This document shows positions 417-56,796 of a stretch of DNA of 64,000 bases, piece by piece. The stretch spans positions 32,001 to 96,000 of the IMG/VR virus record IMGVR_UViG_2724679538_000004; one strand, given 5' to 3'. The translations under genes were made by a program, and so were the position numbers. The notes beneath the pieces were generated by a model that worked only from the letters and a program-made list of their open reading frames with translations, was not told the DNA's origin and did not search any database. Origin of the DNA: a virus (taxonomy: Duplodnaviria > Heunggongvirae > Uroviricota > Caudoviricetes). Each line of letters starts with the position of its first letter. The stretch's first letter is position 1.

Positions 417-689
417 AAAGAATTATGGCGCTTGTTGAGGAAGTCACTCCTCTTACGCACTTTGTTTTGCCATGCCGGCAGTTAGCTTCTGCCTTTGACT
501 ATTCATGCGGCAACCCCGCATTTCGCCACAATGGGCAATTCACTTTAATGGAATAAACTGGCCGTTGTGTCGATTTAATTAGCATGGCCTTACCATGCTA
601 ATTTATTCAACTTGTACAATCCTACAAATCTATCCACTCAGGCTTACACCGTCTTCGTTATTGTAGAAATGAGGATCATCAGCGTTGAA

Positions 690-905
690 TCAGCTTAGAG
701 CAACGACATTTGCTGCTGCTGGGCCTTTAGCCCCATTCTCGATAGAGAATTCGACCTGCTGGCCTTCTTCCAAAGTGCGGAAATTATTACTCTGAATTGC
801 CGAAAAATGTACAAAAACATCTTTACTGCCATCAGCAGGAGAAATAAAGCCAAAGCCTTTATCAGAGTTAAACCATTTTACTAAACCAGTCATTTTATTA
901 GACAT
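690..905 (-). CDS. cold-shock protein, CspA family
   Basis: Product [23 protein letters not shown]...VFVHFSAIQ carries the RNP1/RNP2 motifs of the cold-shock domain; ATG at 905 preceded by AAGAAGG; the longer track ORF (to 1001) lacks an RBS. Confidence 0.85.
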
Positions 906-1209
906 AGATATTACCTTCTTAATTTTGTGAGCCACATAGTGCGGCGAGAATTTGATCTGTATAGATTGGGACTTACTTAGGCACTTAAGGAGGAGACTCA
1001 CGAAGAAGGGAAATCAGAAGATAACACTGAACTGAGACTGCTTTACTAAAACTGCTTACATAAGGTCTGTCTTGCAAACCAACGATGCTATTAACGCATA
1101 CCCTTTCTTTTCATGCAACCTTTATTTTTCAAAGATAACTAATTTTTGTCACCGTTGGTTTAGTAAACGTTAACGAACCAGACGATGACAGACACCTTTA
1201 CAGAGAACA

Positions 1210-7383: not shown

Positions 7384-7409
7384 GGCGTCCAGTTGGACGC
7401 CGTTTTTTT
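7384..7409 (+). terminator. rho-independent terminator (GGCGTCC-AGTT-GGACGCC then TTTTTTT)
   Basis: Hairpin plus T-run after the stop at 7365. Confidence 0.7.
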
Positions 7410-7461
7410 GTTGTTATTATCACCATCAAGAAAACAATTTGTTTAAAAGGAGAAGTAAACC

Positions 7462-15394: not shown

Positions 15395-16112
15395 ATTAAG
15401 CCGCTCGCAGTTTTTGCAGGTGTTTGCGGTGATGCAGTCAATAAAACTGATCAATGAACATACCTACAATGGTGCGGCACCAGGCATTATGTGGGGCAGC
15501 AATAATATCGACAAAGCGCAATTTGCTCAGTTGATTGGCCTAATATCCGAGACACCATTGATGCAAAGTTTGAAATCCCTGCCGTCTGGATGTACTGCCC
15601 CGATCTTGATCAATCCTTTTGTTGAAGGTGGATATATTCCCGACACCGGACCTGGGTTTATTGCAACCCATGAAAATGAAGGTCTTAACATTAAAAGCGA
15701 CGCGTACTTTGGGGCAATGGATGCACATATCTGTATGGCTTTCACGAACCTTATTCGATTTGCCAATAAGCGAGCGGATAGTTTGGCATCGCCAGGTGAT
15801 GGTTTTACCGGTTTCCTTATCGAAAGAAGGGATAAAAAGTACAGTGCGGACAAACTACAGTTCATTGGGAAGTATGGAGAAAATGCAGAAATCGAACTAC
15901 AGCTACCTCATGTTTTAGCAAACAATAGCGCAGACAGTAGGCTGTTGATGGATATCATGCGTCATTTCATTCTGGAAAGCGTTAAACATGTCGACGATAA
16001 GGCCGTCGCGCACAATACCGAATCTTTTGACTTCGCAACATTGCAAACGGCAACAGTGGTCAAATCGTTAGAGACGAGATTATTGGAAAACCCTGTATGG
16101 GGAACATGGTAA
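15384..16112 (+). CDS. hypothetical protein
   Basis: 242-aa ORF overlapping the SbcC-like stop. Confidence 0.55.
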   Translation: MSFKLSRSQFLQVFAVMQSIKLINEHTYNGAAPGIMWGSNNIDKAQFAQLIGLISETPLMQSLKSLPSGCTAPILINPFVEGGYIPDTGPGFIATHENEGLNIKSDAYFGAMDAHICMAFTNLIRFANKRADSLASPGDGFTGFLIERRDKKYSADKLQFIGKYGENAEIELQLPHVLANNSADSRLLMDIMRHFILESVKHVDDKAVAHNTESFDFATLQTATVVKSLETRLLENPVWGTW

Positions 16113-19081: not shown

Positions 19082-19142
19082 CATATGGTGGGGGATATCC
19101 CCACCTTCTCTTTGATTTGTAAGCCTTGTTTAAACACATAAG

Positions 19143-19160
19143 ATAACAACTTGTTTAAAC
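19143..19160 (+). promoter_or_regulatory. promoter/operator motif ATAACAACTTGTTTAAAC upstream of nrdB
   Basis: AAACAA-N-TTGTTT family member. Confidence 0.45.
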
Positions 19161-29479: not shown

Positions 29480-29580
29480 TGCGTGTCGGAGTTGAGGCTT
29501 TAGAAGCCATAGTTCATGTAATTCTGTTTACTTCACTTAGAAAACAACTTGTTTTGACAAATAACATATAGGAAAAACAC

Positions 29581-31093: not shown

Positions 31094-31110
31094 AGAAAAC
31101 AACTTGTTTA
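31094..31110 (+). promoter_or_regulatory. promoter/operator motif AGAAAACAACTTGTTTA
   Basis: AAACAA-N-TTGTTT family member upstream of 31129. Confidence 0.45.
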
Positions 31111-32212: not shown

Positions 32213-32461
32213 CGTTTTACCTCTTTAAAGAAAGGCTATTAATTTAATGGTTAAGGTGCAGTCACAGGCATTCAATTGAAGTGTAGAAAAAATTGAAGGC
32301 GCTAAGCGATAAGCGCTAATCAATGTAGCATAATACGTTGTTGTTGTAACAATAAAACAACATGTAATTTTGACGTCCATCGCCTTAATAACATCTTTAT
32401 CCCCTTTTTAACTTATTCATAATTAAACCAATTAGAAAATAATTTGTTTACTGGTTTGATT

Positions 32462-35495: not shown

Positions 35496-35523
35496 ATAAA
35501 TAAAGGCCATAAGTTATGGCCTT

Positions 35524-35580
35524 AAATAAATTGTTTTCTACCTTTTCTTATTTGTGAAAATAACCACAACTAGAAAACAA
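35524..35580 (+). promoter_or_regulatory. conserved ~55-bp promoter/operator block (AAATAAATTGTTTTCTACCTTTTCTTATTTGTGAAAATAACCACAACTAGAAAACAA); near-identical copy at 41449-41514
   Basis: Two near-identical copies upstream of different genes; related shorter versions at 44260, 45200, 45920, 46745. Confidence 0.5.
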
Positions 35581-40126: not shown

Positions 40127-40516
40127 ATGGGATTCCCATCTCCTGCAGCGGATTATGTTGAAAGCCGTATTTCTCTTGATCGGCAGATAATTAGACATCC
40201 TTCAGCGACCTACTTCCTGCGAGCGGCTGATAGCCATCACCGCGAAGGAATATTGCAGGGGGCGCTGCTGGTGGTCGATTCTTCACTAACTCCGGTTGAT
40301 GGTTCACTGCTTGTATGTGCTATTGATGGGGAATTTCGTGTAAAAAAATACCGTAAGTATCCGCGTCAGTACCTGGAGGATTTAAGAACTGGCAAGAAGG
40401 AAGCATTGCCAAAGGATGACGATGGATGCACTGGCAGTACTGCCGTGTTTGGTGTCATCACTCACATTATCAACGACGCAAGAAGTGGCGAATTTGATGA
40501 TTGTCCTGTGATGTAG
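40127..40516 (+). CDS. humD: UmuD'-like protein (P1 HumD-like; begins at the position equivalent to the UmuD cleavage site)
   Basis: N-terminus MGFPSPAADYVE matches UmuD residues immediately after the Cys24-Gly25 cleavage site; conserved VDGEF(R/T)VKK; preceded by a LexA box; no umuC neighbour. Confidence 0.8.
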   Translation: MGFPSPAADYVESRISLDRQIIRHPSATYFLRAADSHHREGILQGALLVVDSSLTPVDGSLLVCAIDGEFRVKKYRKYPRQYLEDLRTGKKEALPKDDDGCTGSTAVFGVITHIINDARSGEFDDCPVM

Positions 40517-40560
40517 ATAGAAAGCCCTCGTTTGTATGAGGGCTTCTAGGTAAACACAAA

Positions 40561-41304
40561 TCACTGCATGTTGCCGAATTTTTTGTTAAGGCTTTTTCGT
40601 ATTGTCTCTATGGTTTTCTCCCTATCTGAATATAGTTCGCTAACTACATAGTCCATAATCTCAAAAGCACCTTCGATATCTTTGATCCGAACTTCATCAA
40701 ACGTATGACTGCCTGCATTCCCCAAGAACTTTATCGCCAAAAGATTTTGAGCAAGTTTGCTGCCCTCTTCCGGGATTTTTTCGATACGATGGTGCAATCG
40801 GATTGTCTTACCTTTATCATTTTGCGTAGGTATCCCCATAGAGGTAAGGATATTTTCTACAGCGATTCTGATTAGGTTTGCTGCGGCACCTTGCTGCATT
40901 AAAAAAATGGAAAAAGCAGCTTTCAGGGGGCCACTTACTTCATCCGGGCAGTTCTCTGGAATTTGAAAAACATTCAAGGAAGGAACAAAGCAAAGAGGTT
41001 TGTACCATTGATAATATTCGTCTGCCATTTCCTCTGGTTGGTAATCTCTATCCCATCCTGCCTTTCCTACGCAGGCAACCGCTTCGCCACATTTTGCTCG
41101 TGAACATTTGGCCATACAGCTGAAATAGGACTCAGACATATCGTAATCAAACCAATCTTCATTTTGTGCTTTCCTGGTACCTAAAGACTCCTCTTCAACA
41201 AAACTATCTTGCATGATTTCCAGAGTCTTTTGTCCGCAGACCGGACAAGGCCAGTCCACATGTTTATCGCTGTAAAATCGATGGGAAATTTTATGAATAG
41301 CCAT
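40561..41304 (-). CDS. zinc-ribbon protein with C-terminal HEPN/DUF4145-like segment (tentative)
   Basis: N-terminal CPVCG ... CMAKCSRAKCGEAVAC zinc-ribbon pattern; C-terminal LLAIKFLGNAGSHTFDEV resembles the R/K-x-x-G-N-x-x-x-H helix pair of DUF4145-type HEPN domains; only reverse-strand gene in its neighbourhood. Confidence 0.5.
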   Translation of the reverse strand: MAIHKISHRFYSDKHVDWPCPVCGQKTLEIMQDSFVEEESLGTRKAQNEDWFDYDMSESYFSCMAKCSRAKCGEAVACVGKAGWDRDYQPEEMADEYYQWYKPLCFVPSLNVFQIPENCPDEVSGPLKAAFSIFLMQQGAAANLIRIAVENILTSMGIPTQNDKGKTIRLHHRIEKIPEEGSKLAQNLLAIKFLGNAGSHTFDEVRIKDIEGAFEIMDYVVSELYSDREKTIETIRKSLNKKFGNMQ

Positions 41305-41448: not shown

Positions 41449-41514
41449 TAAATAAATTGTTTTCTACCTTTTCTTAATTGTGATAATAAACCACACAAGA
41501 AAACAAATTGTTTA
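41449..41514 (+). promoter_or_regulatory. conserved promoter/operator block (second copy of the 35524-35580 element, ending in AGAAAACAAATTGTTTA)
   Basis: Near-identical to 35524-35580. Confidence 0.5.
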
Positions 41515-42889: not shown

Positions 42890-43766
42890 TTGTTTATACC
42901 AATAAGAAAACAACTAAATAACAGATCAACGAAATGTCAATGCTTTCGCCCGATTTGGTCTATAAAATTGACGTTTTCACACATCACTTCTTATACCCGC
43001 AATCCTACGCAGCAGACAGCGCCACAGCGTCCAATTTTCACCACAGATGACCCAACAACTACCAATAAAAACACACGCTCAAAATCGCTCCCGTTGCGTT
43101 ACACAACCATATAAACAACTTGTTTTCAGGCATAACAAAACAACTAAATAACACATATGCCATTCCCCAAAACAACCAACCTCTTTATGGCAGGCTACCG
43201 AAAAGACCCACCTCTTCTTCCCAGGCTACCGGACAACCAACCTAACTTTCACAGGCAATTCGAAACCTCCATACGCGCGATACCCACGACACGCCATTCC
43301 CCAAATAGCGAAGAACCACCGAAACCCCAACGAAGCTTGTAACCGCAAGGATTTCCTCAATCCCAAAAGACACGAAACAGAACATTCGAGGGAAACGCCA
43401 TTACCCAATACACGAATAACTACAAAAGCCTTTCACGCACTCCATACAAGCAACTCAAACACAATAACGAAAGGAATCGCCCACCTGCCATTACTCCATA
43501 CACGGAGAAGAACAATCACCAAAACGTCGAGAACAACCCAGAGAAGAACCACCGCAAAACGAACGAAACCATATAAACCGACAGAGAGAACTACACACCC
43601 AATTCACCAACAGAAATAGTCGCCGTATAGAACGTTCAGGGAGGAGTGAGTATTAACGCCTATAGAGAGCTTGAGACAGATAAAACACGAAGAAAACACA
43701 ACATGTATAACGGAGAAGCCAGGTATGTATAAGTGGGGAGTGGAGGAGGGGTGTCGCCTCCTTTTT
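42890..43766 (+). ncRNA. A+C-rich, G/T-poor tract with ~100-bp-spaced GCCATT(A/C)CCCAA-type repeats; candidate long non-coding RNA(s) ending at hairpin GGAGG-loop-CCTCC plus T5 (43742-43766)
   Basis: Strong strand-asymmetric composition; promoter-like AAAACAACTAAATAACA at about 42913 and 43138; only low-complexity ORFs without RBS. Confidence 0.3.
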
Positions 43767-43970: not shown

Positions 43971-44295
43971 GTATAGCGAGAGGGAGAGTTGCGGCTACCC
44001 ACCTGTAATGTGCGGGAAGAAGGGAGACTCTCACGTATAGGCGAACCTACTTCCCGCTGGATTCCCTCTGAATGCCCAGCTACAGCGTAATTGTGCCAGA
44101 CAGTCCGCGGGTCACAATCGATTTCAGTAGGTTTTCGGGGAGAGGATTATTCTGCCCACCAGCTCCCTGCGGCCAGTAAATCAGAATAATGTAAAAAGTG
44201 CCCACGGTACTGAACCTGAAAAGTCACTACTAAAACTGCATTTACCGGAATAAAACTCTTTTTCACCTATGTGTTATTGCGATAATAACACCAAC

Positions 44296-44313
44296 GAGAA
44301 AACAAGTTGTTTA
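44296..44313 (+). promoter_or_regulatory. promoter/operator motif GAGAAAACAAGTTGTTTA
   Basis: Palindromic AAACAA-N-TTGTTT core immediately upstream of RBS GGAG. Confidence 0.45.
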
Positions 44314-45160: not shown

Positions 45161-45277
45161 TCCTCTTTGAATGGCGCGTAAACCGCGCCATTTTCTTATG
45201 CCCGATAACAATTTGTTTTCTGCCTTATCTGATTTGTGAAAATGATTTCACTGAAGCAACTTAATAAGGAAACCATC

Positions 45278-45652: not shown

Positions 45653-45989
45653 ATATGGGGGATTTTAGAAAGCGTCTTAAGGAAAGAACTGAGCAGGCCA
45701 GGAGGCAAAACGCGTTTTCTGTTATCCGGTACGCGAAACAATTCAGTCGGAACAACAAGTCAGTTGAGGAAAAGATCCTCAGCGTAATAGGACGATAATT
45801 ATTGAGGCTACCAGCATGGATAGCCTCACTGACTTTTCTTATAACCGAAGGTTAGTTTTGAAACCTGGCTAATGACTTCCAGTACCTGTCTTGATAATTC
45901 AGCCTGCATTAACTTCTTTTCTGCCTTATCTACACTGCGATAATTACACCAACAAGAAAACAACATGTTTACGCAGTGAGGATATGCAC

Positions 45990-46301: not shown

Positions 46302-46574
46302 TTATATCATTTTTGCGAGCTTATTCATTTTGGTGAAGTCAATTGGCAATTCGGCCAAAGGTATCAAATAGTCTTTTTGTGCCCAGAAGTTTGGAGATCT
46401 GCCCACTACATACGAAAGCCGATAAGCGTCTTCATCGGTAATCGGCTTTCTTTGTTCTAGTATAGCTTCAGCATAGTCGATACTAACCGCCATGCTGCGA
46501 GCCAATAATTCAACCCCAATACCGTAATCGTCATAAATGGCATCAAGAAATTTTTTCACATCAAGTTGGGACAT
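46302..46574 (-). CDS. XRE/HigA-like helix-turn-helix regulator (tentative)
   Basis: GRSPNFWAQKDY resembles the G-x-S-P-x-F-W motif of HigA/VapI-type HTH proteins. Confidence 0.45.
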   Translation of the reverse strand: MSQLDVKKFLDAIYDDYGIGVELLARSMAVSIDYAEAILEQRKPITDEDAYRLSYVVGRSPNFWAQKDYLIPLAELPIDFTKMNKLAKMI

Positions 46575-46769
46575 ATGATTATCTCCTCAAATAAGCCAAG
46601 TTTTTATTATATAACGATATTTTTCGATTGTGGGTAATATGATTACACCCGCAGGCTAAAAACACCAACCTCTTACCTCCAGGCTACCGATTAACCCACC
46701 TGTTCCCGTCCGGCTACCGCAACTTTCCACTTTGACGCCTTATTCGTACAACGATAATTAACACCAACA

Positions 46770-46786
46770 AGAAAACAATTTGTTAT
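46770..46786 (+). promoter_or_regulatory. promoter/operator motif AGAAAACAATTTGTTAT
   Basis: Same element family as 44296, 45204, 45954. Confidence 0.45.
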
Positions 46787-49427: not shown

Positions 49428-49952
49428 TCAAAAAGGCAAAATTCGTTCAACCCAATCGAACAAAACAACTATTTTTCTACCGTTCTCGACACGTAGTGTA
49501 ACCTGACAAGCATCTGCGCCTGCTGACACCCCCTCAATTTCACGGCCATCCGCCATGTACACCCTTATAGATTTGTTTGCTTTATGGGCCTGGTTGCAAA
49601 TTGCAAAAAAATCACGGCGTGATGGCCGATTGTCAACATAATCAGGGTGAACTGTTAATCGACCTTTGAAATCGTGAGCGATACCGTCAACCACACCTGA
49701 TTCAATTGTACTAATGCGTTCAAGTGGAAGCCTTATACGATTTTCTTTGTCAAAAGGGGCTGGGCAAAGATCAACTTTGTTACGAGATGGCATGAGACCA
49801 TAAACGTACATGCAAAACGCCTGGCCATCTTCGAGAGTGGCCCTTACAGGAATTTGTTCTCTGCGCCAGAACATCAGGAGGTTTTCAATATTCTTATAAT
49901 CTCGCGGCCAGACCTCCGCTGGCACGCCGTAGGTGATGTCTTTAGTCGTCAT
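49428..49952 (-). CDS. hypothetical protein
   Basis: ATG at 49952, 4 nt after the lipoprotein stop; the longer track ORF would overlap the upstream gene. Confidence 0.5.
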   Translation of the reverse strand: MTTKDITYGVPAEVWPRDYKNIENLLMFWRREQIPVRATLEDGQAFCMYVYGLMPSRNKVDLCPAPFDKENRIRLPLERISTIESGVVDGIAHDFKGRLTVHPDYVDNRPSRRDFFAICNQAHKANKSIRVYMADGREIEGVSAGADACQVTLRVENGRKIVVLFDWVERILPF

Positions 49953-51262: not shown

Positions 51263-51559
51263 TTACGGTAGCCTGCTAAGGATTTCGTCCAGATCTTCCT
51301 TAGTCAAATTTGAGTTTTCATAAATCTGCATAATCCTTTCGCGAGCTTTAGCAGAAGCTTTTGCAGTTGCGCCCAAAGAAGAAGCAATTTTGTCAAACTC
51401 GGCCATCGGCATCTTTTCAAGTACAACATTGATGATTTCAGACTTTGACAGTTTTAGGTTTTTGTCTTTCAGTTTGGCTTTAAATTTTGTTAGTTTGTTG
51501 TTCGCCTGTTCAGTTAATGCGACCTGACAATACGTTGTTTTTTTCTCGCTCATAGTCAA
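51263..51559 (-). CDS. hypothetical protein
   Basis: 98-aa ORF immediately downstream of the helicase gene on the same strand. Confidence 0.45.
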   Translation of the reverse strand: MTMSEKKTTYCQVALTEQANNKLTKFKAKLKDKNLKLSKSEIINVVLEKMPMAEFDKIASSLGATAKASAKARERIMQIYENSNLTKEDLDEILSRLP

Positions 51560-53115
51560 TCTCGTTTCAAAATCCCAAAATCAAAAGTACCACCTACTGG
51601 CAAAACGCCTTCCGCAAAACCTGGTGTTGTATCGATAATATGCTTCCGTTCGTAAGAATGAGACAGTAAGTATTTATTACTAACGTCAATAAAATCACTG
51701 ATAAAGCACACATTGGCTTGATTTTTCTTGGCTCGAAGGCCGCGACCAACACGTTGCCTCATCTCAACTTCGGCCTTTCCACCACCAGCCAGAATCACTG
51801 CCCCAACACTCGGTACATCAACACCAACATCCAGAATAGTCGACCCTATTAAAACATCTATTTCGCCGGACGCTAAACTATTCAATTTTGCTTGCCTTGT
51901 CGATTGGTTGGACTCGCCATAAATGAAGTCAACTTTCAGACCGGACTCCTTCATCATTTCCATTAAGATCTGCCCGTGGCGCTTAAGGCGAACTAGAGTC
52001 ATACAGTTCAGAGAATGCTTTTTATACATTAACGCTTCTCGAACTATGGCCTCGTTACGACTTAGATTATATACGATCCCCAACTGATAAGCCTTTTGGT
52101 AGGCGGTACTCATGCCAACCCTAAAATTTAGATGCTTATTAGCGAGTTCAGCCTTGATTCGTGCCTCGTCTGGAATGTAGGCAATTTTATGATAGAGGAA
52201 GTATGGTTTGGCCAAAATACCTTTATCAATTAGATATTTTTCTGTGACCTTGATTTCTATGCGACCAGCCACGGCCATCAGGCGCATGTTGGCTTCGGTA
52301 GAGTCCTTCATGAAAGGGGTTGCAGTCAGCGCAAGACGATAATCTGCGTTCACACAAAGACGGGCGATATCATAGAAGTTGGAGCCGGAAGACTCATGGG
52401 CTTCTTCAAGAATGAGAAGAGAAACGCTAGAAAGAAAGCGCTTTACCAAATCTCGGCGTTTTAGATGGTAGTTTTTCTTATCTGCCGATGCGTCTCGTGG
52501 CGGCTCTTCAAGGAAGCTTGCCAATGTCTGTACCGTGGCGACGTTGATATGACGTGAAACCTGAAACTCACCAGATCCAATTACTCCAACTTTCTGACCT
52601 TTTAGCCATGATTCGCCATTTTCTGCACGGTAATCGATAGATTTCTGAAAGTTTTCTGCCATTTGATACATCAGAACAGAACGAGTGGTTAAAAATAGCG
52701 TCATGCGGCCAATTCTTGCAGCTGCTTTACATGCAACGTTAGATTTCCCGCCACCAGTTGCGATCTGCGCAATCATCATCCCTTCTCGTACTAGAGTTTC
52801 TACCGTCTGATCCTGATATGCATAATCTGGGTTATATGGGAAAGGGTTAACAACTGGGTTTGGTTTCCCAAGTGCAGGGGCTTTGTCCTTTCGAATATGT
52901 AAGCATTTGATGCCTGCTTTATTCAGATTCGAGGCTACAGGCTTCGCGAATCCAGCGGGGAACGAGTTTTTGCTCCAGTTGAACATGGTGCTTGTGCCTT
53001 TCCAATCACCAGCTTCAACTTCATAGCTCAGCATCTCTTGCACGAGTCGTTTTACATTGTCATCAGCGCCAGAAATCAGTGCGTTTACAGCATTAGATAC
53101 AATCCGAACTGTCAT
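51556..53115 (-). CDS. superfamily 2 DNA helicase (DEAD/DEAH-box, type III restriction res-like)
   Basis: Walker A TGGGKS (motif I), motif II LLILEEAHE, C-terminal helicase domain. Confidence 0.75.
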   Translation of the reverse strand: MTVRIVSNAVNALISGADDNVKRLVQEMLSYEVEAGDWKGTSTMFNWSKNSFPAGFAKPVASNLNKAGIKCLHIRKDKAPALGKPNPVVNPFPYNPDYAYQDQTVETLVREGMMIAQIATGGGKSNVACKAAARIGRMTLFLTTRSVLMYQMAENFQKSIDYRAENGESWLKGQKVGVIGSGEFQVSRHINVATVQTLASFLEEPPRDASADKKNYHLKRRDLVKRFLSSVSLLILEEAHESSGSNFYDIARLCVNADYRLALTATPFMKDSTEANMRLMAVAGRIEIKVTEKYLIDKGILAKPYFLYHKIAYIPDEARIKAELANKHLNFRVGMSTAYQKAYQLGIVYNLSRNEAIVREALMYKKHSLNCMTLVRLKRHGQILMEMMKESGLKVDFIYGESNQSTRQAKLNSLASGEIDVLIGSTILDVGVDVPSVGAVILAGGGKAEVEMRQRVGRGLRAKKNQANVCFISDFIDVSNKYLLSHSYERKHIIDTTPGFAEGVLPVGGTFDFGILKRD

Positions 53116-53179
53116 AAATCTCTTTCCTTCGTGCCTTTTGTGTGTTATTTGGCTATCATAATAAGTAAGTGCTTATCTA

Positions 53180-53878
53180 ATGGATTGTATCAGCAAAATG
53201 GATGTGAAAATCACGATTTTGCAGGTTGAAGTGGCCAACCTGCGTCCAAATTCATGGAACACCAACTCAGTAGGTGCTCAAAACTTCGAAAAACTGAAAG
53301 GATCTATCGAAAAATTGGGCTTTTTTAAGCCTATTTTGGCGCGTGAGCTTAATGACGGCATTTATGAAATCCTCGGCGGCGAACATCGCTGGCGTGCGGC
53401 CATTGAACAAGGAATTTCAACGGTTCCAGTGCTATCGGTTGGCAAAATTAGCGACTTAGTAGCGAAACAGATGTCACTCGTGGACAACGAACGCTACGGC
53501 GAAGACGATCAGATTGCTTTGCAGCGCTTTATTGAAGAAATTCAGTCTGAACTCGATTACCAGTTGTCAGAAATTGCCCCTTATGACGATGAAATTTCTA
53601 TGGTTCTTGCAAAAGAGGCTGCAATTGACCTCGAAGCTCTTGAGGCACTGTCGCGTGGGGAGGATGAGCCTGTAGATACTGACAAGCGTGAAAAAATCGA
53701 ACGCGCCGGAACAGATCATCAGACCATGCGTTTCAAAGTTACCTTTGATGCGTCAGATCGTGTTGCCGACACAATAAAAAACATCATCAAAGAACAAGCA
53801 ATTAACACTGGCAATGAAATGGAGAACGCTGGTGAGGCTTTGGTGTGGCTGGTCGACTACTACAAGGAGCGTATGTAA
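53180..53878 (+). CDS. ParB N-terminal domain (ParB/sulfiredoxin-fold) protein
   Basis: ILGGEHRWRAA resembles the ParB box II GxxRxxA motif. Confidence 0.6.
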   Translation: MDCISKMDVKITILQVEVANLRPNSWNTNSVGAQNFEKLKGSIEKLGFFKPILARELNDGIYEILGGEHRWRAAIEQGISTVPVLSVGKISDLVAKQMSLVDNERYGEDDQIALQRFIEEIQSELDYQLSEIAPYDDEISMVLAKEAAIDLEALEALSRGEDEPVDTDKREKIERAGTDHQTMRFKVTFDASDRVADTIKNIIKEQAINTGNEMENAGEALVWLVDYYKERM

Positions 53879-54546
53879 TGACCAAAAAGTTTGAAATCGT
53901 ATATCGCAATCCGGCAGATCTCATTCCTTACGAGATGAATGCCAAAAAGCATGATGAACAGCAGATCCGAGATCTGGCCGCAGCCATTAAAAAGCGCGGA
54001 TTTGACCAGCCAATTACGGTCGATAAGAACGACGTAATTATTACTGGCCACGGCCGCCGTGAGGCTGCAATTTTTGCTGGGCTTGAGCGCGTACCAGTTA
54101 TTGTTCGCGATGATCTGAGTGATGACGAGGTTCGTGCGAAGCGCCTTGAAGATAACCGACTCGCCAGCATTGATTACGATGCAATTAAGCTACAGAAAGA
54201 GCTTGAGTCGCTTGTTCTGGACGATATCGAGGTTTTCGGCTTTGAAGAGCGAGAGTTGAATGTTCTCGTTGGCAGCATGACTGAGGAAATGGATACCGAC
54301 TCGTTAGTTATCGATCTGGGCGAAGAAACCAAACGACAGAAGGATGAGCACACCGAAATCAGTCGTGAAGTTGCAGCGGAAGAAGTGCGCGTTGTCGACG
54401 TATTGGGCTTTAAAACGCTCCCTGCTGGCTCTGCCATTGTTGTTGGTGATTTGCTTGCCCACATGGAAGAAATGACTGGAGAAAGCGGGGTAGACGCATT
54501 TGTGGCATATGCGGAGAAGATCTCTTCCGGGGAGATGACTGCATGA
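53878..54546 (+). CDS. second ParB N-terminal domain protein
   Basis: ITGHGRREAAIFAGL ParB-box-like motif; AGGAG RBS before ATG 53878 (TAATG overlap with previous stop). Confidence 0.6.
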   Translation: MTKKFEIVYRNPADLIPYEMNAKKHDEQQIRDLAAAIKKRGFDQPITVDKNDVIITGHGRREAAIFAGLERVPVIVRDDLSDDEVRAKRLEDNRLASIDYDAIKLQKELESLVLDDIEVFGFEERELNVLVGSMTEEMDTDSLVIDLGEETKRQKDEHTEISREVAAEEVRVVDVLGFKTLPAGSAIVVGDLLAHMEEMTGESGVDAFVAYAEKISSGEMTA

Positions 54547-56333: not shown

Positions 56334-56600
56334 ATGACGTTAACCGATAAACAAAAGGACATTATCAAAACGCTCAATCTCGGTTATGAACGAGGACATC
56401 TACTTGATCTGGACGAATTGCTTGAAGTTTTGCCCTACAAAACATCTAAGCAAAGTATCCAGTTCTCTATTCGCGCACTGATCAAAAAAGGGCTGGTGGA
56501 GAAAGGAAACACTCGCCAGCGCAGTGATACTCGATATCACCGTCGTACTCTTGGGTTAACTACTTTAGGTCGAGCACGAGCCAAATTACTGGTGATGTAA
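56334..56600 (+). CDS. small basic protein, probable winged-helix DNA-binding protein
   Basis: 88-aa ORF with GGAT RBS; basic C-terminus. Confidence 0.4.
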   Translation: MTLTDKQKDIIKTLNLGYERGHLLDLDELLEVLPYKTSKQSIQFSIRALIKKGLVEKGNTRQRSDTRYHRRTLGLTTLGRARAKLLVM

Positions 56601-56703
56601 TAGGTCTGGGGTGCTTATTTAAAGCCTGCGTCTGTATATATAAATAATAAATAACTTATTAAATATATACGGAAGCAGGTTCAATAAGACACGCCCAGAC
56701 CTA
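56601..56703. other. nested inverted-repeat element (outer TAGGTCTGGG / CCCAGACCTA; inner CCTGCGTCTGTATATAT / ATATATACGGAAGCAGG) around an AT-rich core, directly upstream of terS; candidate packaging or terminase-binding site
   Basis: Inverted repeats seen directly; position between the ParB-like operon and the small terminase subunit. Confidence 0.35.
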
Positions 56704-56716
56704 ATTTGACACCCCA

Positions 56717-56758
56717 GAAAACAAGTTGGTTAGTGAATGCAATAAACAAGTTGTTTTA
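56717..56758 (+). promoter_or_regulatory. two copies of the AAACAAGTTG(T/G)TT promoter/operator motif upstream of terS
   Basis: AGAAAACAAGTTGGTTA and AATAAACAAGTTGTTTTA. Confidence 0.45.
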
Positions 56759-56796
56759 GAGCGCATGGACGCGCTCTGTGTGTTTTAGAGGGATCT

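What the first reader, a model, noticed from the sequence alone, without database searches (positions are those of the whole stretch)
35524..35580. Conserved promoter/operator element with palindromic core AAACAA-N-TTGTTT, including two near-identical ~55-bp blocks
More than a dozen genes (7462, nrdB, 29581, 31129, 32462, 35580, 41518, 44318, 45236, 45891, 46806, terS) are preceded by ...AGAAAACAA-N-TTGTTTA immediately 5' of the ribosome-binding site. The blocks at 35524-35580 and 41449-41514 are nearly identical over about 55 bp. The dyad symmetry in the 5' leader suggests an operator for a dimeric phage regulator controlling a regulon, rather than a standard sigma-70 promoter alone.
Basis: seen in the sequence. 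Interest (0 to 1): 0.5.

Follow-up and report, generated by a model that had tools for sequence, protein, structure and literature searches.

The report
Conserved promoter-operator dyad of SSU5-like phage-plasmids
A 13-base palindrome (AAACAA-N-TTGTTT) sits at a fixed distance from about fifteen promoter-like sites in this SSU5-type phage-plasmid and is kept unchanged across the whole family, so it is most likely the shared control site through which one still unidentified regulator switches most phage operons together.

Summary
AAACAAnTTGTTT (one mismatch allowed) occurs 15 times in the window against 0.33 expected, and every copy is intergenic. The window is an SSU5-like phage-plasmid, closest to Escherichia phage Cyrano. 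Cyrano, SSU5, Yersinia pestis pFra and divergent Klebsiella and Nissabacter-like relatives carry the same motif, 16 to 60 times more often than chance predicts. Between the window and SSU5 the two arms are 92-97% identical, the centre base 31% and the flanks 55-60%. The dyad has two fixed positions: about +14 after a TGnGATAAT-type -10, and in some cassettes also about -38, exactly 51 bp upstream. The RNA hairpin is only -0.7 kcal/mol. In a published Cyrano lysogen transcriptome the genes behind these sites sit at background, except parA. The best reading is a dispersed DNA operator for a global repressor, comparable to P1 C1 operators, L5 stoperators or RK2 KorB sites. The binder is unknown. 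A lysogen-expressed FljA-family tandem-Sm protein does not co-vary with the motif. A conserved 88-aa winged-helix protein, two ParB-like proteins or a host factor remain possible. The element is undescribed in the searchable literature but belongs to a known kind.

The parts
35524..35539 (+). Upstream-class dyad AAATAAATTGTTTTCT, centre 35530, about -38 relative to the predicted start of the 35592 gene. This is the finding's own coordinate.
35553..35561 (+). Extended -10-like element TGTGAAAAT of the 35.5-kb cassette.
   Evidence: its last T lies 20 nt before the implied dyad centre
35572..35580 (+). Leader half-site AGAAAACAA only. The right arm is replaced by the Shine-Dalgarno GGAG. Its implied centre is 51 bp from the upstream dyad.
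35503..35523 (+). Hairpin AAGGCCATAAgTTATGGCCTT, terminator-like, abutting the upstream dyad.
   Evidence: the same arrangement occurs in SSU5
41450..41465 (+). Upstream-class dyad AAATAAATTGTTTTCT, centre 41456.
41479..41487 (+). Extended -10-like element TGTGATAAT.
41498..41514 (+). Leader-class dyad AGAAAACAAATTGTTTA, centre 41507, 51 bp from the 41456 dyad, directly followed by the Shine-Dalgarno GGAG of the DUF5983 gene.
7429..7445 (+). Leader-class dyad before the DUF7238 gene (7462), preceded by a terminator-like hairpin at about 7384-7409.
19141..19157 (+). Leader-class dyad AGATAACAACTTGTTTA before nrdB.
29539..29555 (+). Leader-class dyad before the tciA-like gene (29581).
31094..31110 (+). 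Leader-class dyad before gene 31129.
32434..32450 (+). Leader-class dyad AGAAAATAATTTGTTTA before the DUF4942 gene (32462).
42905..42913 (+). Left-half-only leader site AGAAAACAA.
43113..43128 (+). Dyad AAACAACTTGTTTTCA, followed at 43135-43143 by the half-site ACAAAACAA.
44297..44313 (+). Leader-class dyad, with TGCGATAAT at 44278-44286.
45206..45221 (+). Upstream-class dyad TAACAATTTGTTTTCT after a terminator-like hairpin. It is followed by TGTGAAAAT and a degenerate leader.
45955..45971 (+). Leader-class dyad AGAAAACAACATGTTTA, with TGCGATAAT at 45936-45944.
46770..46786 (+). Leader-class dyad, with GATAAT at 46753-46758 and TTGACG as a -35-like hexamer.
56716..56732 (+). First dyad of the late (terS) leader, AGAAAACAAGTTGGTTA. 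The G variant is conserved in Cyrano, SSU5 and pFra.
56741..56757 (+). Second dyad of the terS leader, 25 bp after the first.
56758..56786 (+). Terminator-like hairpin AGAGCGC-atggac-GCGCTCT plus a T-run, between the dyads and the terS start (56797). It is conserved in SSU5.
49428..49952 (-). Candidate trans-factor 1: FljA-family (PF03614) protein, 174 aa, tandem Sm-like fold, expressed in the Cyrano lysogen.
51263..51559 (-). Candidate trans-factor 2: 98-aa protein after uvsW (Cyrano CYRAN_117), the most highly expressed member of that operon in the lysogen. A ribbon-helix-helix fold was suspected but is not supported.
56334..56600 (+). Candidate trans-factor 3: 88-aa winged-helix-like protein immediately upstream of the terS leader, 75-89% conserved across the family.
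53180..54546 (+). Candidate trans-factors 4: two adjacent ParB_N-domain proteins (53180-53878 and 53845-54546).
   Evidence: at background in the lysogen

Best explanation
The palindrome is the operator of a family-wide regulon.

Shown:
- Each of about 15-20 transcription units of an SSU5-like phage-plasmid starts with the same cassette: an optional dyad at about -38, then TCTaCCTTtTCT, then an extended -10-like TGnGATAAT, then 10 nt (aACACCAACA), then AGAAAACAA-N-TTGTTTA centred at about +14, then 0-19 nt, then the Shine-Dalgarno sequence.
- The two 6-bp arms are under strong purifying selection, and the centre base is free.

Inferred:
- A sequence-specific protein binds the double-stranded dyad as a symmetric dimer just downstream of the start site, and blocks open-complex formation or promoter escape.
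- Where there is a second dyad 51 bp (about five helical turns) upstream, two dimers bracket the core promoter and may cooperate or loop.
- The result is coordinated silencing of replication, nucleotide-metabolism, accessory and late (terS) operons in the plasmid-prophage state, with joint release on induction.
- The late operon is additionally gated by a terminator-like hairpin behind its two dyads.

Unknown: the binder. It must be highly conserved or host-encoded, because the motif does not change across lineages. Candidates, in my order:
1. The conserved 88-aa winged-helix protein.
2. The lysogen-expressed pair of the 98-aa protein and the FljA-like protein.
3. The ParB-like proteins.
4. 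A host nucleoid protein.
For: - Enrichment: 15 sites against 0.33 expected, all intergenic.
- The same motif is 16-60-fold enriched in Cyrano (18), SSU5 (20), pFra, and Nissabacter-like, divergent E. coli and Klebsiella relatives. None occurs in 80 kb of chromosomal control DNA.
- Footprint between window and SSU5: arms 0.92-0.97 identity, centre 0.31, flanks 0.55-0.60.
- Mismatched sites are not compensated on the other arm, so sequence, not pairing, is selected.
- Phasing: in the largest class (22 of 61 sites) the last T of the -10-like hexamer lies 20 nt before the dyad centre. The spacing between the upstream dyad and the leader site is 51 bp in 10 of 13 pairs over 6 genomes.
- The upstream copies keep both arms although they lie outside the transcript of their own promoter.
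- The RNA hairpin is only -0.7 kcal/mol and the leaders are no more structured than shuffles.
- Cyrano lysogen RNA-seq (PMC9928086, S1 Table): the first genes behind the dyads read 5-13 against a median of 9.8. The exceptions are the parA operon (50-89), dnaB (21) and CYRAN_111 (25).
Against: - No binding protein is identified and no start site has been mapped. The promoters lack a -35 and were not called by the consensus scan.
- Silence in the lysogen could also mean activator-dependent promoters, or rapid decay of the mRNA.
- Each site has an extended arm on one side only, with AGAAAACAA facing the core promoter. Left-half-only leaders also exist (35572, 42905, 43135). A pure symmetric-dimer model does not explain either feature.
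- The conserved DNA-binding candidates (wHTH88, ParB-like) are at background in the lysogen. The lysogen-expressed candidates diverge to 35% identity without any change in the motif.
Confidence: 0.55

Rival explanations
1. RNA-level operator. The motif acts in the 5' leader of the mRNAs (about +8 to +20) as the binding site of the phage-plasmid's FljA-family protein. By analogy with Salmonella FljA on the fliC leader, that protein would block translation initiation and destabilise the mRNA of all lytic and early operons in the lysogen.
For: - Window 49431-49952(-) is PF03614 Flag1_repress (E 2.5e-83).
- It is present in every family member, including pHCM2 and pFra.
- It is expressed in the Cyrano lysogen at log2 7-8, against 3-4 for silent genes.
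- All leaders are short, so a protein at the dyad would lie inside the ribosome footprint.
- Left-half-only leader sites fit single-strand recognition.
[quoted passage not shown] 2006). These papers are not held in the library.
Against: - The motif is unchanged where the FljA-like protein has diverged to 35% identity. That is as far as true FljA, whose target, the fliC leader, does not match the phage motif (PWM p 0.1-0.2).
- Mirror complementarity of the arms has no role in single-strand binding, and the hairpin is only -0.7 kcal/mol.
- Upstream (-38) copies and direct TTGTTTTCT repeats upstream of promoters lie outside the regulated transcript.
- The distance is fixed to the -10, not to the Shine-Dalgarno sequence.
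Confidence: 0.15
2. A cis-only promoter and leader module with no dedicated trans-factor. The conserved block would be part of the promoter itself (initially transcribed region, AT-rich S1 or ribosome enhancer, curvature). It would be kept uniform because cassettes spread and are homogenised by recombination, as with the promoter-early stem-loop (PeSL) cassettes of T4-type phages.
For: - The motif is invariant across hosts and across deeply diverged lineages.
- Conservation extends beyond the dyad (TCTaCCTTtTCT, ACACCAACA).
- Two blocks of about 55 bp are near-identical in front of unrelated genes.
- Many cassettes are bounded by terminator-like hairpins and flank small ORFs in a mosaic region at 41-47 kb.
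Against: - A promoter or enhancer element has no need for exact dyad symmetry with a free centre base, nor for a second inverted copy exactly 51 bp away.
- Orthologous cassettes in SSU5 and the window have diverged in their flanks but not in the arms, so conservation is by selection at each site rather than by recent copying.
- Promoters that look constitutive give background mRNA in the lysogen.
Confidence: 0.15
3. A host DNA-binding protein site. A conserved enterobacterial nucleoid or regulatory protein binds the dyad and couples all phage-plasmid promoters to host physiology. One example is IHF, whose core WATCAANNNNTTR the motif resembles on both strands with two mismatches.
For: - The motif is invariant in Escherichia, Salmonella, Klebsiella, Enterobacter, Cronobacter and Yersinia elements, although every candidate phage regulator diverges.
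- The resemblance to the IHF core is my own reading of the sequence.
Against: - All 12 arm positions are 92-97% conserved, far tighter than known IHF, Fis or H-NS sites.
- No site was found in 80 kb of enterobacterial chromosomal control DNA.
- In IMG/VR, contigs with several sites are all SSU5-like.
- I could not match the dyad to any E. coli regulator motif from memory. This was not tested against a motif database.
Confidence: 0.1

Closest known systems
Bacteriophage P1 C1 repressor operators (Op sites)
   Same: P1 is also a phage-plasmid. One operator sequence is dispersed over the genome at many promoters, so a single factor holds many unlinked operons silent in the plasmid prophage. The SSU5 family also shares several P1-like genes (cra, tciA/B, a humD-like gene).
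   Different: P1 operators are asymmetric 17-mers (ATTGCTCTAATAAATTT). None is present here, with 0 matches at up to 3 mismatches. Here the site is a 13-bp dyad at a fixed +14 or -38 position. No C1 homologue was noticed, but none was searched for.
Mycobacteriophage L5 (cluster A) stoperators
   Same: Dozens of copies of one 13-bp site lie in short intergenic regions, all in one orientation relative to transcription, and silence the genome in the lysogen.
   Different: Stoperators are asymmetric and act on elongating RNAP at variable positions. Here the core is symmetric and phased to the -10 element.
KorB OB operators of IncP plasmid RK2
   Same: The geometry is the same: a 13-bp 6-N1-6 palindrome repeated about 12 times on a plasmid. 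Class I sites are centred at about -39/-40, and the binder is a ParB-family global repressor. The window encodes two ParB_N proteins.
   Different: The sequence differs (TTTAGCSGCTAAA is absent). The ParB-like genes are at background in the Cyrano lysogen. Most sites here are at +14, a position not used by KorB.
Salmonella FljA and the fliC 5' leader
   Same: A protein of the same Pfam family (PF03614) is encoded here, and the element lies in short 5' leaders a few nucleotides before the Shine-Dalgarno sequence.
   Different: FljA has one target, whereas there are about 20 here. The fliC leader does not match the motif significantly, and there is no co-variation.
PeSL (promoter-early stem-loop) cassettes of T4-type phages
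   Same: Repeated promoter plus hairpin modules flank small, variable ORFs in a mosaic region.
   Different: PeSLs are not reported to carry a dyad operator, and they are thought to act mainly in gene shuffling.

Membership tests
Dispersed prophage operator network (P1 C1 type) | The same short site recurs at many unlinked promoters of one phage or plasmid genome, far above chance. | tested here: met
   15 sites against 0.33 expected in the window, and 18-20 per related genome.
Dispersed prophage operator network (P1 C1 type) | P1 operator consensus ATTGCTCTAATAAATTT. | tested here: not met
   0 matches at up to 3 mismatches.
Dispersed prophage operator network (P1 C1 type) | A cognate repressor is shown to bind the sites and to be expressed in the lysogen. 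| not testable with these tools
   There are only candidates. Expression data are available for Cyrano but no binding data.
Operator of a symmetric dimeric DNA-binding protein | Two-fold sequence symmetry with both arms conserved and the centre free. | tested here: met
   Arm identity 0.92 and 0.97, centre 0.31. AAACAA/N1 is the only over-represented 6-mer palindrome (7 perfect copies against at most 2 for any other).
Operator of a symmetric dimeric DNA-binding protein | Fixed position relative to core promoter elements. | tested here: met
   The -10-like T lies at -20 from the centre in the modal class, and the second site is 51 bp away in 10 of 13 pairs. Start sites are predicted, not mapped.
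Immunity-specificity operator (lambda, P22 or 434 type) | Operators are clustered next to the repressor gene and co-vary with it between heteroimmune relatives. | tested here: not met
   The sites are dispersed. The motif is identical in lineages whose lysogen-expressed regulators are only 35% identical.
KorB/ParB OB operators | A 13-bp 6-N1-6 palindrome bound by a ParB-family protein. | tested here: inconclusive
   The geometry is met, and ParB_N proteins are present. The OB sequence is absent, the ParB-like genes are silent in the lysogen, and binding is untested.
FljA-type leader operator (RNA) | An FljA-family protein is encoded by the element. | tested here: met
   PF03614, E 2.5e-83, with a tandem Sm-like model.
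FljA-type leader operator (RNA) | The target resembles the known FljA target (fliC 5'UTR), or co-varies with the protein. | tested here: not met
   The best PWM score on the fliC leader has p 0.1-0.2, and there is no co-variation.
Structured cis-regulatory RNA (Rfam family, stable hairpin) | A stable or covarying secondary structure, or a match to a curated family. | tested here: not met
   The hairpin is -0.7 kcal/mol and leader z-scores are about 0. No compensatory changes are seen. No Rfam match overlaps the sites.

The most novel reading that the evidence does not exclude
The leader dyad, or its A-rich and U-rich halves, is the RNA target of the family's FljA-like tandem-Sm protein. SSU5-type phage-plasmids, including Salmonella Typhi pHCM2 and Yersinia pestis pMT1/pFra, would then hold their lytic programme down post-transcriptionally through an Hfq-fold repressor acting on about 20 mRNA leaders. 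This would be a mode of lysogeny control not known for any temperate phage. It would also reveal the ancestral function of the flagellar phase-variation repressor FljA.
Probability: 0.13. Interest if true: 0.75.

Novelty: new member of a known kind. Interest (0 to 1): 0.45.

Why it matters
SSU5-like phage-plasmids are among the commonest large plasmids of clinical Escherichia, Klebsiella, Salmonella and Enterobacter. About 830-960 PLSDB records matched the queries. The family includes Salmonella Typhi pHCM2 and the Yersinia pestis pMT1/pFra backbone. Their lysis-lysogeny control is essentially uncharacterised.

A single invariant operator in front of nearly every forward-strand operon gives a direct experimental handle:
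- It serves as bait to fish out the master regulator.
- It predicts which genes belong to the silenced set.
- It offers a portable, tightly regulated promoter cassette.

The finding also suggests that all family members share one regulatory specificity, which bears on superinfection immunity and on the co-residence of these plasmids.

Tried and rejected
1. fliC leader similarity. The Salmonella and Citrobacter fliC leader shares CAAGTTGT with the motif, but a PWM test gives p 0.1-0.2. I rejected this as evidence.
2. Co-variation test. I fetched relatives with FljA-like proteins of 58%, 56% and 35% identity (L007, L018, L020). The motif is identical in all of them, so no binder can be assigned this way.
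3. Independent occurrence. The FljA-like hit on a 5.2-Mb E. coli chromosome (L006) is just an SSU5-like element. In the phage collection, full-length homologues occur only in SSU5-like phages. In IMG/VR, non-SSU5 contigs with 2-3 hits are chance matches in low-GC coding DNA.
4. Ribbon-helix-helix idea for the 98-aa protein. The AF2 model has pLDDT 54, hhalign to CopG gives 1.6% probability, and there is no PDB hit. The idea is unsupported.
5. CYRAN_45, the HTH 'putative repressor' of Cyrano, is absent from SSU5, which keeps the motif. It is unlikely to be the binder.
6. The HigA-like HTH at 46302-46574 has no homologue in pFra, L018, L007 or L020, so it is not family-wide.
7. The sigma-70 consensus scan does not call the cassette promoters.
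8. The first genome-contig scan with the FljA-like protein found nothing.
9. The FljA papers and a 2026 bioRxiv preprint on a phage-plasmid promoter could not be read.
10. Literature searches for the 13-mers, and for FljA together with phage-plasmids, found nothing relevant.
11. PDB sequence searches for wHTH88 and the 216-aa protein were uninformative.

Full report
**What the window is.** The region around the finding matches SSU5-like phage-plasmids. Escherichia phage Cyrano (pLF82) covers window 1-25000 at 89% identity, and Salmonella phage SSU5 matches at about 79%. Hundreds of non-mobilizable plasmids of about 110 kb from Escherichia, Klebsiella, Enterobacter, Salmonella and Yersinia also match. 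Using the Cyrano and SSU5 annotations, the window runs from the recombination and replication genes through nrdAB, a mosaic block of small ORFs and a minus-strand block (uvsW to a 216-aa protein). It continues into parB-like genes, terS, terL, portal and capsid.

**Checking the observation.** AAACAANTTGTTT with at most one mismatch occurs 15 times against 0.33 expected; the largest shuffle gave 2. All 15 fall in the 12% of the window that is not ORF.
- At 35580 only the left half (AGAAAACAA, 35572-35580) lies in the leader. The palindrome at the finding's own coordinates (35524-35536) is a second, upstream copy.
- The copy at 45206 is of the same upstream type.
- A site at 43113 was missed.

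The two blocks at 35524-35580 and 41449-41514 are about 90% identical.

**Anatomy.** I pooled 51 sites from four genomes. The consensus is ..TGnGATAAT-(10 nt, aACACCAACA)-AGAAAACAA-N-TTGTTTA.
- In the modal class the last T of the -10-like hexamer lies 20 nt before the dyad centre. The predicted start is therefore about 13 nt upstream of the centre, which puts the centre at about +14.
- The distance from the dyad to the Shine-Dalgarno sequence varies from 0 to 19 nt. The element is tied to the promoter, not to the ribosome-binding site.
- A second class of sites lies upstream: AAAyAA-N-TTGTTTTCT followed by aCCTTtTCT and then the -10.
- In 10 of 13 pairs over six genomes this upstream dyad is exactly 51 bp from the leader site, or from a leader half-site. 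That places it at about -38.
- In both classes the longer arm (AGAAAACAA / TTGTTTTCT) faces the core promoter.
- Three leaders carry only the left half.
- There is no recognisable -35, and the consensus scanner does not call these promoters. Their reading as extended -10 promoters is my inference.
- Several cassettes start right after a terminator-like hairpin.
- The terS leader has two dyads 25 bp apart, then a conserved terminator-like hairpin and T-run just before the terS Shine-Dalgarno sequence.

**Conservation.** The motif is strongly enriched across the family:

| Sequence | Sites | Expected |
|---|---|---|
| Cyrano | 18 | 0.8 |
| SSU5 (first 100 kb) | 20 | 0.3 |
| Y. pestis pFra (32 kb) | 4 | 0.17 |
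| Nissabacter-like metagenomic relative (20 kb) | 6 | 0.15 |
| Divergent E. coli relative (20 kb) | 7 | 0.19 |
| Deeply divergent Klebsiella plasmid (40 kb) | 13 | 0.23 |
| Enterobacterial chromosomal control (80 kb) | 0 | not computed |

- At 13 orthologous site pairs between the window and SSU5, identity is 0.92 (AGA), 0.92 (left arm), 0.31 (centre), 0.97 (right arm) and 0.55-0.60 in the flanks.
- Variant sites (AAATAA, TTGGTT, TTATTT, TAACAA) are never compensated on the other arm.
- In IMG/VR, contigs carrying several copies are all SSU5-like. The few others are chance hits in low-GC coding DNA.
- No Rfam family overlaps the sites.

**DNA or RNA.**
- As RNA, the dyad can form only a 5-bp A-U-rich stem with a 3-nt loop (-0.7 kcal/mol).
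- It appears in the minimum-energy fold of 2 of 10 leaders, and the leaders are no more structured than shuffles.
- The exact mirror complementarity, the lack of compensation, the upstream copies that lie outside their own transcript, the 51-bp phasing and the fixed distance to the -10 all favour recognition of double-stranded DNA by a symmetric protein.

**Expression.** The published LF82 transcriptomes give per-gene values for the Cyrano lysogen (PMC9928086, S1 Table).
- The first genes behind the dyads sit at background: terS 7.1, cobT 7.8, CYRAN_58 5.7, nrdB 12.9, tciA 7.0, CYRAN_87 7.1, CYRAN_101 7.5, CYRAN_105 12.8, CYRAN_106 12.2, CYRAN_110 6.7, against a median of 9.8.
- The exceptions are the parA operon (50-89), dnaB (21) and CYRAN_111 (25). 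In Cyrano a further GATAAT lies downstream of the parA dyad.
- Promoters that look constitutive are therefore silent at the mRNA level in the plasmid-prophage state. This fits repression. It does not exclude activator dependence or fast mRNA decay.

**Who binds.** The most striking candidate is at window 49431-49952(-).
- It is a PF03614 'repressor of phase-1 flagellin' (FljA) family protein (E 2.5e-83).
- It is present in all family members, including pHCM2 and pFra, and is about 39% identical to true FljA.
- It is expressed in the lysogen at log2 7-8.
- From my own knowledge, FljA binds the fliC 5'UTR and blocks translation.

This makes an RNA-level model attractive, but two tests went against it. 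The verified fliC leader does not match the phage motif (p 0.1-0.2). The motif is also unchanged in a Klebsiella lineage where this protein is only 35% identical.

The other candidates compare as follows:
- The 98-aa protein after uvsW is the most highly expressed gene of that operon in the lysogen. It diverges equally fast, and my ribbon-helix-helix guess was not supported.
- The 88-aa winged-helix-like protein just upstream of the terS leader stays 75-89% identical, but it is at background in the lysogen.
- The two ParB_N proteins stay 65-90% identical, but they too are at background in the lysogen.
- Cyrano's HTH 'putative repressor' is missing from SSU5.
- A host factor cannot be excluded.

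I therefore leave the binder open.

**Comparison with known systems.** Functionally the element resembles three kinds of dispersed site: the operators of P1 C1, the stoperators of mycobacteriophage L5, and, in geometry (13 bp, 6-N1-6, a class at about -39), the KorB operators of RK2. It is not a sequence member of any of them. The P1 and KorB consensus sequences are absent. It also fails the co-variation expected of a lambda-type immunity operator. The cassette organisation in the 41-47 kb mosaic region recalls the PeSL cassettes of T4-type phages. Neither the 13-mers nor a link between FljA and phage-plasmids appears in the searchable literature. One 2026 preprint on a phage-plasmid promoter could not be read.

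**Verdict.**
- Most likely (about 0.55) this is a family-specific, DNA-level operator embedded in a conserved promoter cassette, giving coordinated repression of about 15-20 operons.
- The regulator is unidentified.
- It is a new member of a known kind and of moderate interest.
- The more novel possibility is post-transcriptional control by the FljA-like Sm-fold protein. It remains open at about 0.13.

Noticed in passing
window 665-1083 (-): Full-length match to the Rfam cspA thermoregulator (RF01766; 185.7 bits against a gathering score of 78). The phage-plasmid therefore carries a cold-shock-protein gene with its long regulatory 5'UTR.
   Followed up: no
window 49428-49952 (-): An FljA-family (PF03614) protein is conserved in all SSU5-like phage-plasmids, including S. 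Typhi pHCM2 and Y. pestis pFra. The predicted fold is two tandem Sm/Hfq-like domains. I found no solved structure and no literature link to phage-plasmids.
   Followed up: yes
window 56758-56786 (+): A conserved terminator-like hairpin plus T-run lies between a promoter-like region with two dyads and the terS start codon. This suggests that late-gene expression also needs antitermination or read-through.
   Followed up: partly
window 51263-53115 (-), and Cyrano CYRAN_117/118: The uvsW helicase and the following 98-aa protein are among the few non-toxin-antitoxin genes clearly expressed in the Cyrano lysogen (46 and 114 against a median of 9.8). The uvsW/parB divergent intergenic region (window 53116-53179) is conserved across the family and lacks the dyad.
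   Followed up: partly
L020 (Klebsiella pCAVP366-109, reverse strand, around 15840-15900): Three direct copies of the half-site TTGTTTTCT, spaced 17 and 25 nt, lie upstream of one promoter cassette. The 9-mer half-site may be the basic recognition unit.
   Followed up: no
window 56334-56600 (+): Many database copies of the 88-aa protein are 'partial' at contig ends, and the Cyrano and SSU5 records both start about 60 bp before the first terS dyad. Assemblies and phage genome ends therefore tend to break in the AT-rich stretch at 56620-56680, a possible packaging site.
   Followed up: no
Cyrano 40268-40822 (outside the window): CYRAN_43 is expressed about 720-fold above background in the lysogen. 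Its function is unknown, and the signal might come from a small RNA rather than the ORF.
   Followed up: no
window 46302-46574 (-): A HigA-like HTH protein (TIGR02607, E 8e-8) is transcribed divergently from the 46.8-kb cassette. It is absent from pFra, L018, L007 and L020, so it is an accessory gene.
   Followed up: partly
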